A stretch of 64,000 nt of DNA, taken from contig NC_042999.1 in the NCBI RefSeq assembly GCF_006345805.1, positions 135,966,001 to 136,030,000 of the forward strand. The letters are read 5' to 3'. Source of the DNA: Octopus sinensis. Taxonomy: Eukaryota. Shown here in pieces: positions 39,361 to 59,930 of the stretch (positions within the stretch are counted from its first letter, which is position 1; each line of letters opens with the position of its first letter). A model generated the notes under the pieces. It did no database searches, had not been told where the DNA came from, and saw only the letters and a list, made by a program, of their open reading frames with translations. The translations under genes were made by a program, and so were the position numbers.

Positions 39361-39533
39361 ATATAATATTAATTCGAGACAAAACCACTATTTTCCTTGT
39401 TTGTTTTGCAAAATAGTGGTTTTGTCTCGAATTAATATTATATAATATTTTACTATAAAATTGGATTTAATCCTAAATCTGATTTTTTCCCTGTAAATTT
39501 GGATTTATTCCCTAATGTTTATTATTATTATTA
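39361..39533 (+). mobile_element. 5'-truncated member of the 42630 family with a short inversion and no ribozyme
   Basis: 39391-39530 is nearly the reverse complement of 42630-42765. 39361-39394 is an inverted copy of 39411-39444. Flanked by (TA)n. Confidence 0.75.
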
Positions 39534-39641
39534 TATATATATATATATATATATATATATATATACATGAGTTTGTGTAGGTGTGGATATGTATGAGCGT
39601 ACATGGGTGTGCGTGTATGTATGTGGTAGAGAAATGTGATA

Positions 39642-39886
39642 CAGTTGTGGTCATAAGTTTGGAACATAGGCCTGAAAATTAAAAATTCTTTTATTAAATG
39701 CCCAAAGTTATATTTAATTTGCAATATTTATCATTACTTGGCTAAGAATTTGGAACAAATGTCTGAAAATTAGAATTTTTATATTAAATGCCCAATTATA
39801 TACATTATATATATTTGAATCAAATTGTATTTGGGTATTACAATTTTAATTTTTAAAAAAATGTTCCAAACTTTTGGCTATGACTA
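39642..39886. mobile_element. Tc1-like MITE
   Basis: TA-CAGTtgtggtcataagtttggaaca pairs imperfectly with tgttccaaacttttggctatgact. A partial internal duplicate lies at about 39737-39800. Confidence 0.55.
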
Positions 39887-55253: not shown

Positions 55254-57477
55254 GTTGCTAAATGAAGAGAATGGAAGAGAAAGAGAGTCTGCTGAATGTT
55301 GATCCAACAGAGGGACACGCTATCCGAATTGACAGTACCTAAATAGATAAAGCAATTAAGGATATGTAAACAGGGAAAGCCCCTGGCCCATCAGGAATCA
55401 CTGCAGAGAGGCTTAAAATATCTGGCAGTGTCAGCTACAGTCTAATCACCTGTATGGTCAAAAAGGTGACACATGGAGTCATACCCAATGAATGGTGTAG
55501 CAGCACCATAGTCAACTGCTATAAAGGTAAAGGTGATGCATTAGATACAAATAATTACAGAGGTATCAAGTTGTTGGATCAGGTAATGAAAGTCACAGAG
55601 AGTGTCATAGCACAACTAATTAGAGAGAGTCAGTTTAGACAAGATGCAGTTTGGGTTTGTGCCAGGGAAAAGCACCACTGATGCTATATTTCTGGTAAGA
55701 CAGCTGCAGGAGAAATAGCTAGCCAAAGATAAACTTCTGTACTTGGCTTTCGTTGACATGGAGAAAGCCTTTGACAGGGTCTGTCATTCTCTTATCTGGT
55801 GGTCAATTAGAAACTAGGGATAGATGAGTGGCTAGTGAGAGCTGTGCAAGCCATGTACAGGGATGCTGTCAGTAAGGTGAGGGTTGGCAATGAGTACAGT
55901 GAAGAATTCCGGGTAGGAGTCCACCAAAAATTAGTCCTCAGCCCTCTCTTATTCATCATAGTCCTCCAGGCAATAACAAAGGAATTCAAAACAAGATGTC
56001 CCTGGAAGCTTCTCTATGCAGATGAACTTGCTCTAATAGCTGTTTCTATATCAGAACTAGAGAAGTTTCAGGTATGGAAGCAAGGTCTTGAATCGAAGGG
56101 CCTCAGAGTTAATTTAGCAAAAACCAAAGTTTTAATAAGTAGGAAGGCAGACAAATCACAAATCCCTTCAGGTAGATGACCCTGCTTGATCTGTAGAAAA
56201 GACATAGGTAGAAACTCCATAAGATGTACCTGGTGTAAGCTATGGACACATAAGAGGTGCAGCAATATCAGAAGAAGGTTAACTGGGGAGATAGTTTTTG
56301 TGTGTAGCAAATGCTCAGGGGCAATAAACACTGAAAATGGGCAGAAAACAGCTTCTGTCACATGCCAGGGATAAAAACTAGAAGTAGTTGATAGCGTCCA
56401 TTACCTAGGTCACCAAGTCAGTAGTGGGGGTGCATGCTCTGAGAGTGTAGCTGCTAGAATAAGAATAGCCTTGGCAAAGTTCAGAGAGCTCCTACCACTG
56501 CTTGTGACAAAGGTCCTTTCACTCAGGGTAAAAGCTAAACTGTATGACGCATCTGTGTGAACAGCCATGCAACATGGCAGTGAAACATGGGCCGTGACTA
56601 CTGAGGACATGCATAAACTTGCAAAGAATGAAGCTAGTATGCTCCACTGGATGTCTAATTTCAGTGTGCATACGCGACAGTGTAAGCACCCTGAAAGAAC
56701 AGTTGGACATAAGAAGCATCAGATGTGGTGTGCAAGAGAGATGATTGCATTGGTATGGTCATGTGTTGCATATGGATGAGAAAAGCTGTGTGAAAAAGTG
56801 TCATATACTAGCAGTAGAGGGAACCTGTGAAAAAGGTAGACCCAGGAAGACCTGGGATGAGGTGGTGAAGCACAACCTCACGGAGGCGATGACAGGTGAC
56901 TGAGACCTTTGGAGATATGCTGTGCGTGAGAAGACCCGGCAAGCCAAGTGAGACTGTAACCATGGCCTATGCCAGTGCAGCATAACTGGCCTATTTAAGA
57001 GTACCCTTCAATCATTGGGCAATAAACAGTGCTAGCAAAGACCTGTTGAGTCAAGTGAAGTCATTGTCTTGTCAATGACAGTACTGCCTGATTGGCATCC
57101 ATGCTGGTGGTATGTAAAAAGCACAATTCGAGCTTGATCAATACCAGTGCTGCCTGACTGGTCCCCAGCCAGTAGCACATAAAAAGCACCATTCAAACAT
57201 GATCGTTGCTAGTGCTGCCTGACTGGCTCCCATGCTAGTGGTACATAAAAAGCACCAATCGAGTGTGTTTGATGCCAGTGCGAGCTGACTGGCCCTATGC
57301 TGGTGGCATGTAAAAAGTACTTAATACTCTCTCAGAGTGGTTGGCATTAGAAACGGTATCCAGCTGTAGAAACTTTGCCAGATCAGATTGGAGCCTGGTG
57401 CAGCCTTCTCAGTGAAATCATCCAACCCACGACAGCATGGAAAGTGGACGTTAAACAACGATGATGATGATGATGAT
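55254..57477 (+). mobile_element. RTE-clade LINE, 5'-truncated, pseudogenised reverse transcriptase plus 3' UTR and (GAT)n tail
   Basis: Motifs GKAPGPSGITAE, NYRGIKLL, QFGFVPGKSTTDAIF, AFVDMEKAFDRV, GVHQ..VLSPLLF, LLYADELAL, GSETWA and GRPRKTWDEVV. Multiple stops. Confidence 0.92.
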
Positions 57478-58952
57478 ATATAGGTAAAGTTACCTTCTGA
57501 AGTCATACTGACTCATAAGGGCCAGTTTCCTGGTTTCTTGTTGTATAAATATTCCCCACCTGGACGGGACGCTGATCCATTGCAGGATTTCTTATTTTTG
57601 GCAGCTGAGTGAACTGGAGCAAAGTGAAATGAAGTGTTTTGCTCAAGAACACAATGCATTGCCCAGTTCAGAAATTGAAACTACAATCTCATGATCATAA
57701 GTTCAATACCCTAATCACTAAGCCATGCATCTCGATAGATAGATAGACAGACAGACAGACAGACAGACAGATAGATAGATAGGTAGATTAGATATATATA
57801 TATGAAATAGTTAATCTAGATAAAGATAACAGTGCTCAATGCAAATAAGATTGCAAAATACGTTAAGAAAAAATACATACATACTAACTATTGATATGCA
57901 GACTGAGTTCTATTGTGTTTTACAATGTGATTCAAAGTGTGCCAATGAAAAGTTAGCCTGTGTATATTTTTTTCTAAATACATACATTGATATAATCCAC
58001 ATTGATTTTAATAATATTAATATTCATATTTCGTGCTGTGTGTTGAGAGCACTTGAAGATAATGTACACTTATAATCATAGACAATGAAATCCTAAAAAA
58101 ATATTTCTCCAATATAATATGCGTTAGCTTTTCTTTAACATTATGATACAGATATATATAAAAAAAACTTTGTTTAGTCAGATTTATTATAATTGATGCA
58201 TAAAATAAACTGAAAATGCTTGTGTATTCTAAATGAAACAAAAAGCAAATTTGAAAGTGATCTTTGAACTTCACTAATATAGGCTGTAAAGCTGCCCCTG
58301 ATGTAAATTCAATATTGTCAAAGTAACATGATTATGTCTTTTCACGAATAAAGTGAAATTATACGCAAATAATATAGTGTATATACATATATATATATAA
58401 ATATATATATATATACATGCATGCATTTATATATATATATATATATATATATGTGGAAAACAAACGTTAATTGATGATGACGACGATCATGACAATGACA
58501 TATATCATCATAATCATCATCATTTTGATGTACACTTCTCCATGCTTCTACAGAAGATTTTATATATATGGCCATATATATATATACATACATAAACATA
58601 TGTATATGTGTATGTGTGAATATATATATATATATACTAGTAGAGATACCCACTGCTGCTCAGGATTAAGATGGCATAGTTTTTTTATTCTTTTACTTGT
58701 TCCAGTCATGTGACTGAGGCCATGCTGGAGTATTGCCTTTAGTTGAACAAATTGACCCCAGGATTATTCTTTGTAATCCTAGTATTTATTCCATTGGTGT
58801 CTTTTGTGGAACCTCTAAGTTACAGGGATGTAAACACAGCAACATTGGCTGTCAAGTGATGGTGGGCGTACAAACACATATATAGAACAGTCTTCCTTTA
58901 GTTTCCGTGTACAAATTCCACTGACAAGGCTTTAGTTAGCCTGAGGCTATAG

Positions 58953-59930
58953 TATATATATATATATATACATGTATATATATATATATATATATATATA
59001 TATATATATATATATATATATATATATATATATATATATATACACATACACACACACACACACACACACACATTATATATATATATATATTATATTAATA
59101 ATAATTTGAGAGAATATTATTCCTAACTTACAGGGAAAAATTCAATTTAGAAATACTAAATTAGATTTCACAAAATATATAATATATATATAAATATTGG
59201 AAAAAACCACCTTTTATCAATTCAAAATGAACAATTAAATTACACCATTTAGAAAATTACTAATTTTCTAGATGGTGTATACACACACACACACACACAC
59301 ACACACACACACATATATATATATATATATAGTGTAATTTAATTGTTCATTTTGAATTGATAAAAGGTGTTTTTTTTCTAATTTATATATATATATATAT
59401 ATATATATATATGTATATATGTAAATATATATATCATCATCATCATCATCGTTTAGCGTCCGTGATGATGATGATGATATATATATATAGACATATATAC
59501 ATATATATATATATCTATATATATATCTATATATATATATATATATATATATATAGACATATATACATATGTATGTACATATATATATATACATATATAT
59601 ATACATATATATATATACACACATATATGTACATATATATATATATCTATATATGCATACATACATACATATATATATATACACACACACACATATATAT
59701 ATACATATATATGTACATATATATCTATATATACATATATACACACACATATATACATATATAAATATATATAGATATATTTATACATACATATATATAT
59801 ATATATATATATATATATATATATATATATATATATATAATATATATACCTACATATATATATACAGATATATATATATACATACATACATAAATATATA
59901 TATATATATATATATATTATATATATATAT
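58953..59930. repeat. Large compound (TA)/(CA) microsatellite region with embedded elements
   Basis: Directly visible. Other large tracts: (CATA)n 13777-14010, (TG)n-like 32452-32608, (AAT)n 9520-9572, (TA)n 31199-31262. Confidence 0.95.
59092..59390 (-). mobile_element. Related fold-back element in (TA)n; right arm interrupted by a CA/TA microsatellite
   Basis: Left arm about 59185-59259 pairs with 59261-59279 plus 59332-59390. The tail (ttacagggaaaaattcaatttag) resembles the tail of the 42630 family. Confidence 0.55.

What the first reader, a model, noticed from the sequence alone, without database searches (positions are those of the whole stretch)
39361..59390. A multi-family system of TA-targeted, fold-back, ribozyme-carrying mini-retroelements
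Seen: four insertions within 20 kb (39361, 42630, 54410, 59092) from at least two unrelated sequence families share one plan. Each lies in (TA)n, has no ORF, has a long arm with a 65-90 nt unpaired tail, and has a shorter inverted arm. The two longest carry hammerheads. Established: an inverted partial terminal repeat plus a 3' tail is the signature of Penelope-like element insertion, and retrozymes are non-autonomous hammerhead retroelements that can form circular RNAs. Inference: this density implies very abundant cephalopod retrozyme-like families or solo Penelope termini. I am not aware of a description of these families but cannot check the literature.
Basis: partly seen in the sequence, partly recalled or inferred. 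Interest (0 to 1): 0.8.

Follow-up and report, generated by a model that had tools for sequence, protein, structure and literature searches.

The report
Penelope retrotransposon ends bearing hammerhead ribozymes
These four fold-back inserts are short end-pieces of three families of a known kind of jumping gene (Hydra-type Penelope elements), and the places where their sister copies begin suggest that the built-in ribozyme likely cuts the element's RNA in living cells, a step not yet shown for these elements.

Summary
Observation confirmed; the retrozyme reading is not supported. The four inserts are head-to-head terminal pieces (pseudo-LTR) of three autonomous Penelope-like families (B, with A as a shorter copy; C; D). 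Longer genomic copies link each terminus to a reverse transcriptase plus GIY-YIG ORF with the published marks of the Hydra clade (DKT, CxCX5C, no CCHH, (TA)n targets, type I hammerhead). Hydra elements, their TA bias and an octopus member are in print, as are inverted copies with a one-sided tail. Tens of thousands of insertions are estimated. The fresh part is where copies begin. Of 87 position-ordered B arms, 31 start 1-29 nt after the hammerhead cut site, 1 inside the ribozyme and 27 at or just above a splice junction; 30 of 31 spliced arms keep at most 28 nt of first exon. Both arms of an insertion share their class. D repeats the pile-up (17 of 30), C only weakly. Many minis are therefore likely run-off copies of a spliced leader RNA or of ribozyme-cut RNA (about 55%; polymerase stalling is the rival). 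Cleavage itself was not tested.

The parts
39361..39394 (-). Insert A, short inverted arm without tail (family B)
39392..39530 (+). Insert A, long arm: last ~134 nt of family B including the tail (about 39449-39530); begins about 48 nt after the hammerhead cut site, so no ribozyme
   Evidence: 97% to B
42632..42869 (-). Insert B, long arm: last ~238 nt of the autonomous family B; tail about 42632-42714
42813..42856 (-). Minimal type I hammerhead, long arm of B; predicted cut between 42817 and 42816 (GUA)
42870..42889 (.). Junction filler between the arms of B
42890..43056 (+). Insert B, inverted arm without tail; unspliced, starts in the last 18 nt of the intron (acceptor AG at 42906-42907)
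42917..42960 (+). Minimal type I hammerhead, short arm of B; predicted cut between 42956 and 42957
54410..54588 (-). Insert C, long arm: last ~180 nt of the autonomous family C; tail about 54410-54470
54514..54574 (-). Type I hammerhead with long stem II, long arm of C; predicted cut between 54519 and 54518 (GUU)
54593..54703 (+). Insert C, inverted arm without tail
54603..54663 (+). Type I hammerhead, short arm of C; predicted cut between 54658 and 54659
59092..59260 (-). Insert D, long arm: last ~170 nt of the autonomous family D; tail about 59092-59174; begins about 95 nt after the family's hammerhead cut site
59261..59385 (+). Insert D, inverted arm without tail, split by a (CA)n(TA)n run at 59280-59331

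Best explanation
The four inserts are short head-to-head copies of the terminal repeat (pseudo-LTR) of three autonomous Hydra-clade Penelope-like retrotransposon families, likely made when the element's enzyme cuts a (TA)n run and primes reverse transcription on both DNA ends. Shown here: each terminus belongs to a longer element with an RT/GIY-YIG ORF; one arm ends at the tail end and the other about 64-81 nt earlier; family B has a 1,035-nt GT-AG intron ending 9 nt before the hammerhead, and spliced copies exist as DNA, which proves an RNA intermediate. Inferred from published work on other Penelope elements: the RNA starts inside the terminal repeat, and the enzyme starts copying at two internal sites that bound the tail. 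Inferred here: both copies run towards the RNA's 5' end and are joined there with the loss of some 0-30 nt. That end is likely (i) the start of a spliced leader about 28 nt above the donor (85%), (ii) the hammerhead cut site (55%), or (iii) absent, in long unspliced read-through RNA that gives long and full copies. The minis are by-products, not a self-propagating class. The four window copies themselves do not start at the cut site: A and D are shorter, B and C keep the ribozyme.
For: Tandem array of 5.56-kb B units with terminus, ORF, terminus; 859-codon open frame; inverted terminus, RT, endonuclease, UTR, terminus in C (L194) and D (L215, L216). Model matches telomerase RT best. Hydra motifs in alignment against the definition in PMC8557442. 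Intron and exact junction without microhomology; the junction moves 4 nt with the donor between two subfamilies; 78 exact junction matches, control 0; 30 of 31 spliced arms keep 14-28 nt of exon 1. B arm starts: 31 of 87 at +1..+29, 1 at -43..0, 27 at -44..-75, 22 longer, 6 shorter; by locus 21 against 1, p 5e-8. D: 17 of 30 at +7..+42, 2 inside the 95-nt ribozyme. Of 28 head-to-head B pairs 25 have exactly one tail, and none pairs a post-cut arm with a read-through arm (11.5 expected; 0 of 100,000 shuffles), though unequal pairs occur (3 long with short). No read-through arm of 22 ends in the 90-97% AT, palindrome-rich intron zone, so AT microhomology alone does not place the pile-up.
Against: No cleavage, transcript end or enzyme activity was measured. 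B and D arms start 7-30 nt after the cut site, rarely at it (one at +1). In C the signal is weak: 8 of 47 tail arms at -6..+9, three of them reaching 4-6 nt past the site, and 9 of 35 arms map inside the ribozyme. Predicted hairpins overlap the pile-up zone in B and D, so stalling is possible. PMC11167929 found the ribozyme dispensable in vitro and no RNA reads ending at the cut in anole. Arm ends come from local alignments in AT-rich DNA and can be off by several bases; all position-ordered samples are from one chromosome end. No intact full-length ORF was among the copies examined. Hydra membership rests on motifs, not on a tree with reference proteins.
Confidence: 0.85

Rival explanations
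1. Same origin, but the pile-up after the ribozyme comes from reverse transcriptase stalling at the folded hammerhead or a neighbouring hairpin on uncut RNA; the ribozyme need not cut.
For: Starts lie 7-30 nt short of the cut site in B and D; folding predicts hairpins that span the cut site and reach about +25; ribozyme mutants did not change insertion in vitro (PMC11167929).
Against: Independent stalls should give pairs with one stalled and one read-through arm: 0 seen, 11.5 expected. Spliced arms lose a like amount (0-14 nt) from their presumed RNA start. In C the strong GC-rich stem II collects few ends while several arms start at -1 or 0.
Confidence: 0.3
2. The second arm is not primed on RNA: the first cDNA folds back and copies itself, or a long palindrome later loses its centre. 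Matching arm starts would then be automatic.
For: Many junctions sit on short palindromes and both arms share subfamily and splice state.
Against: The tail-less arm often reaches further 5' than the tail arm (L296 +10 against +22, L301 +24 against +40, L388 +10 against +18), and pairs such as -1210 with +57 share no fold-back point. Single arms show the same pile-up. PMC11167929 shows extension of both strands from two start sites.
Confidence: 0.12
3. Independent non-autonomous retrozyme-like families that spread through circular RNA.
For: No ORF, type I hammerheads, high copy number; one short tandem of ribozyme-bearing C units exists (L235).
Against: No fixed unit length or shared junction; most copies lack the ribozyme; head-to-head rather than tandem (27 of 57 B loci show both orientations by exact 20-mer, none a same-strand tandem); every terminus is continuous with an ORF-bearing element.
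Confidence: 0.05
4. Assembly artefact from fold-back reads.
For: Inverted repeats beside microsatellites are error-prone.
Against: Arms differ by 3-11%, are unequal in a fixed way, have different unique flanks, and the plan recurs at dozens of loci.
Confidence: 0.02

Closest known systems
Hydra clade of Penelope-like elements, incl. Hydra-1_Obim of Octopus bimaculoides (Craig et al. 2021, PMC8557442; seen: abstract, passages, sections 11 and 20, supplement sheet for Hydra, hammerhead table and protein excerpts)
   Same: C-terminal GIY-YIG, DKT, R/K-W-K, CxCX5C, no CCHH, CxxC and CxH, type I hammerhead about 100-270 nt from the 3' end, (TA)n targets, inverted 5'-truncated copy, one-sided tail. 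By eye the C protein resembles the printed Hydra-1_Obim RT.
   Different: Hammerhead stems of B, C and D differ from the one printed for Hydra-1_Obim; B (5.56 kb) and D (about 5.2 kb) are twice the usual under-3-kb length, with 2.3-2.4 kb after the ORF; tails 61-85 nt against the 30-40 nt described for Penelope elements; no intron or start classes are mentioned for Hydra in the parts read.
Penelope of Drosophila virilis (Schostak 2008, PMC2377424, passages; Cervera and De la Pena 2014, PMC4209133, parts 1-2 of 4)
   Same: Start site inside the terminal repeat, short first exon, intron whose end abuts hammerhead helix I; pairs of hammerheads 100-700 bp apart on opposite strands were already read as truncated Penelope copies.
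   Different: Intron 1,035 nt against 75 nt, exon 1 about 28 nt against 46; here spliced copies are common as DNA, whereas Penelope elements are known for keeping the intron.
Poseidon of Anolis carolinensis (Frangieh 2024, PMC11167929, parts 1-2 of 4)
   Same: AT-rich target, both strands cut and extended, two internal start sites that bound the tail.
   Different: There the ribozyme overlaps the ORF start, was dispensable in vitro and left no RNA ends; here it lies in the leader and copy starts pile up just after it.
Animal non-LTR retrozymes (Cervera and De la Pena 2020, PMC7229834, passages; Li et al., bioRxiv 10.64898/2026.07.22.740005, parts 1-3 of 5)
   Same: ORF-less, type I hammerhead, derived from Penelope termini.
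   Different: Retrozymes are defined as head-to-tail repeats with a ribozyme in each unit, expressed as circles; these are dispersed head-to-head pieces of varying length, mostly without ribozyme.

Membership tests
Penelope-like elements (EN+) | Single ORF with telomerase-like RT | tested here: met
   Model of the B protein (mean pLDDT 62, 6-row alignment) has telomerase RT as its top four Foldseek hits; Pfam and PDB sequence searches found no RT
Penelope-like elements (EN+) | GIY-YIG endonuclease in the same ORF | tested here: met
   VVY..YIG motif with R, H, E, N by eye; Pfam GIY-YIG only below cut-off (E 0.028, C); Atlas neighbours at 0.95-0.97 carry GIY-YIG in 26-50% of members
Penelope-like elements (EN+) | Tandem or inverted copies forming pseudo-LTRs, tail at one end | tested here: met
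   (25 of 28 pairs with one tail)
Hydra clade | C-terminal EN, DKT in place of DKG, RWK motif | tested here: met
   DKT in B and D; R-x-K-W-K in B and D; this part of C not recovered
Hydra clade | CxCX5C linker, CCHH absent, CxxC and CxH around E and N | tested here: met
   B and C; D endonuclease aligns to B at 57-62% but its motifs were not read out
Hydra clade | Type I hammerhead and (TA)n targeting | tested here: met
   (108 of 115 B matches keep CUGANGA)
Hydra clade | Generally short (under 3 kb); descriptive, not diagnostic | tested here: not met
   B unit 5.56 kb, D about 5.2 kb; C full length not seen
Hydra clade | Falls in the Hydra clade of an RT tree | not tested
   Reference proteins were seen only as text excerpts in a supplement
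Neptune clade (first guess, recalled) | CCHH motif with two cysteines inside GIY-YIG; CX2-5CxxC linker | tested here: not met
Naiad clade | N-terminal endonuclease, no canonical hammerhead | tested here: not met
Animal non-LTR retrozymes | Two or more head-to-tail units, each with a whole hammerhead | tested here: not met
   None of the four; 1 such pair among 100 listed C ribozyme matches; 0 of 57 B loci
Animal non-LTR retrozymes | Expressed as small circular RNA | not testable with these tools
   Only assembled contigs of runs guessed to be RNA were available
Animal non-LTR retrozymes | Self-cleavage shown | not testable with these tools
   Needs an in vitro assay

The most novel reading that the evidence does not exclude
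The genome holds a fossil record of a Penelope hammerhead cutting in vivo: about a third of family B arms and half of family D arms are run-off copies of RNA that begins at the ribozyme's cut site, and another third of B arms copy a capped, spliced 5' leader. The ribozyme and the intron would then sort the element's RNA into templates that give harmless mini fold-backs and uncut, unspliced templates that give full copies, which would explain both the swarm of short copies and why full elements keep their intron.
Probability: 0.5. Interest if true: 0.72.

Novelty: new member of a known kind. Interest (0 to 1): 0.47.

Why it matters
As a system it is known: Hydra-clade Penelope elements, TA targeting, hammerheads in the terminal repeat and inverted tailed insertions are published, with an octopus member. 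What adds value is that these abundant copies let two open points be tested by counting. First, whether Penelope hammerheads cut in cells: they are weak in vitro, and the one reconstituted element did not need its ribozyme. Second, where the RNA template starts and why introns survive retrotransposition. The copy-start classes give exact predictions (a cap about 28 nt above a donor; a 5'-hydroxyl end at the cut site). They also suggest that many 'truncated' copies are complete copies of short templates. Practically, some 20,000-100,000 such pieces are easily mislabelled as MITEs, SINEs or retrozymes in cephalopod repeat libraries.

Tried and rejected
Rfam scan: only microsatellite-driven miRNA matches, no hammerhead among the 150 listed of 205. 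Pfam on B, C, D proteins and five relatives, and PDB sequence searches: nothing above cut-off. Neptune assignment (recalled) dropped after reading the Hydra definition. Genomic deletion as source of the B junction rejected: exact GT-AG, no microhomology, junction follows the donor in two subfamilies. No consistent first exon or intron was found for C or D; C starts cluster at -54..-84 (12 of 47) and D at about -130 (5 of 30, near the limit of the alignment), unexplained. Two mappings of C ends were discarded because references carried TA flanks or inverted arms; replace them. Sequencing runs: no RNA holder listed; contigs of three runs guessed to be RNA and one unknown cover the B terminus, with loose ends of both spliced and unspliced type, but contigs show no RNA ends and both forms exist as DNA, so expression, cleavage and circles stay open. 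Lunse et al. on dimer cleavage was not held; known to me only through a review passage (PMC6765202). Our own findings index returned nothing. Not checked: Repbase, Dfam, and the supplement of the Octopus vulgaris repeat annotation (PMC13282606, passages read, 31 recently active Penelope-like families), which may already hold these families.
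Full report
Observation. The four inserts exist as described: A 39361-39535, B 42630-43056, C 54410-54706, D 59092-59385. Each lies in (TA)n, has a long arm ending in a 61-85 nt tail and an inverted arm without it, and no ATG ORF over 35 codons. A type I hammerhead descriptor run on both strands of the window gave 4 hits, one per arm of B and C. 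A is family B (97%), D is related to B (70% in the terminus), C is unrelated as DNA. No Penelope protein remnant lies in the window.

Autonomous partners. Searches of the own genome gave 1,384, 2,504 and 2,182 candidates for B, C and D, 40 scored each. All copies share the 3' end and differ at the 5' end. Three B hits 5.56 kb apart form a tandem array, 98.7% alike, with terminus, ORF, about 2.4 kb non-coding, terminus. The longest open frame found has 859 codons, 799 of them element protein; the endonuclease part gave 148 matches from 145 scored of 18,519 candidates. No copy examined has a whole intact ORF. C was walked upstream to a copy with inverted terminus, RT, endonuclease, 1-kb UTR and tailed terminus (L194). 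D termini are followed by an ORF start, and 7 of 12 D-endonuclease loci have the D terminus downstream, one with the whole inverted-ORF-tailed plan (L216). Proteins: B-D 79%, C to either 35-37%.

Clade. Pfam and PDB sequence searches were blank, but the predicted model matches telomerase RT best. The motifs DKT, R-x-K-W-K, CxCX5C, no CCHH, CxxC and CxH are those given for the Hydra clade in PMC8557442, whose supplement lists (TA)n targets for nearly all families, hammerheads, a family with an inverted 5'-truncated copy, and Hydra-1_Obim from Octopus bimaculoides. Its printed hammerhead differs from B, C and D (by eye). No tree was built. Inverted copies with a one-sided tail and opposite-strand hammerhead pairs read as truncated Penelope copies (PMC4209133) are in print.

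Abundance and targets. Exact 20-mers: B body 6,311, C tail 5,775, C ribozyme core 1,025, D body 1,731, controls 0-1; these count arms and miss diverged copies. Forty 10-kb stretches at round coordinates held 8 insertion sites, about 54,000 per genome (23,000-107,000); two of the 8 carry ORF parts. (TA)4 follows 39 of 43 B and 42 of 47 C tails, against 4% of random positions. Of 57 position-ordered B loci, 27 show both orientations by exact 20-mer, 30 one arm, none a tandem. Of 28 head-to-head pairs 25 have exactly one tail. Tail-less arms mostly stop 77 (B), 64 (C) or 81 (D) nt before the end, which fits the two internal start sites shown for an anole element (PMC11167929).

Intron and leader. 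In 12 of 39 distinct ribozyme-bearing B arms the bases before the hammerhead come from 1 kb further up. The skipped part is a 1,035-nt GT-AG intron ending 9 nt before stem I, without microhomology. In a second subfamily the donor and the junction both lie 4 nt earlier, so this is splicing, not one inherited deletion. The first junction has 78 exact matches; in the first 30 loci, 30 of 31 spliced arms keep only 14-28 nt of exon 1 and one keeps 90 or more. I infer a transcription start about 28 nt above the donor. The order start, short exon, intron, hammerhead is that of Drosophila Penelope (PMC2377424; PMC4209133).

Starts at the ribozyme. I mapped 91 B arms from 57 loci, about the first 92 of the 100 listed matches on one chromosome; 87 remain after collapsing one triplicated locus. 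Relative to the cut site: 31 at +1..+29, 6 at +30..+62, 1 at -43..0, 27 at -44..-75 (splice junction and exon 1), 22 further up, several of these limited by reference divergence. By locus 21 against 1 (p 5e-8). Post-cut arms come from at least three subfamilies, and none of the 22 read-through arms ends in the far more AT- and palindrome-rich intron zone at -138..-76. Pairs are concordant: 10 post-cut with post-cut, 8 spliced with spliced, 5 long with long, 5 others, none mixing a post-cut with a read-through arm (11.5 expected). D: 17 of 30 arms at +7..+42, 2 in the ribozyme, 5 at -126 or beyond, 6 at +66..+101. C is weaker: of 47 tail arms 8 at -6..+9 (three past the site), 0 at +10..+30, 5 at -11..-47, 12 at -54..-84, 13 longer, 9 tail-only; a second anchoring gave 8 of 35 at -1..+5 (6 independent) and 9 at -5..-47, some of them internal deletions. 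Against the cleavage reading: starts are seldom at the site itself, hairpins are predicted over the zone in B and D, and the anole ribozyme was dispensable in vitro with no RNA ends seen.

Mechanism. Shown: origin from autonomous elements, RNA intermediate, TA bias, two fixed 3' boundaries, start classes. Inferred: cutting of (TA)n, priming on both ends, run-off to the RNA's 5' end and joining with loss of 0-30 nt; a capped spliced leader (85%) and ribozyme-cut RNA (55%) as templates. Fold-back self-copying is disfavoured because the tail-less arm often reaches further 5' than the tailed arm and very unequal pairs exist. The four window copies are ordinary members: A and D begin well after the cut site, B is unspliced and begins in the intron's last bases, C begins at the ribozyme's 5' edge.

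Novelty. The families are new members of a known clade as far as I could see; Repbase, Dfam and the supplement of PMC13282606 were not seen and may hold them. Nine full-text searches and the passages read showed no report of Penelope copies starting at the hammerhead cut site or of spliced-leader run-off copies; most subscription papers are outside that library. PMC8967140 and PMC6431247 were seen as passages only. Interest 0.47: ordinary as a class, useful as a countable test of an open question.

Noticed in passing
L145-L164 (G000 loci): 15 of 19 distinct loci that hold the first 130 nt after the D tail (5' UTR and ORF start) jump back into the D terminus within about 45 nt, at varying AT-rich junctions, giving ~320-bp ribozyme-less partial tandems; only 4 continue into the ORF. 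Possibly a template switch or a further start site inside the ORF.
   Followed up: partly
L190:249-1665 (+), L217, L218: Further, more distant Penelope-like ORFs (34-46% to B) nested near B and D copies; more Hydra-like families exist in this genome.
   Followed up: no
family C loci, e.g. L424, L436: A C subfamily has C instead of U at position 4 of the ribozyme core (15 matches against 74 canonical) and a different upstream UTR; a natural test of whether the core matters.
   Followed up: partly
window 62964-63017: Old, 80% identical tail-less B-like fragment, a fifth copy outside the finding's range.
   Followed up: no
window 42070-42394: A 325-bp imperfect palindrome (74% self-complementary) unrelated to B, C, D; MITE-like.
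   Followed up: no
window 48211-48682: Short element with 52-bp inverted ends and a decayed transposase piece that looks mariner-like (label recalled, by eye).
   Followed up: no
window about 55250-56950, pieces at 53917-54053 and 59931-60313: Decayed LINE that looks RTE-like (label recalled, by eye).
   Followed up: no
L003, upstream of the B terminus: What looks like a reversed U6 snRNA copy (recalled, by eye) inserted in the B intron.
   Followed up: no
L308-L313 (G000:C1 near 3,736,000): One whole head-to-head B mini is repeated three times in tandem, so minis can be amplified at the DNA level after insertion.
   Followed up: no
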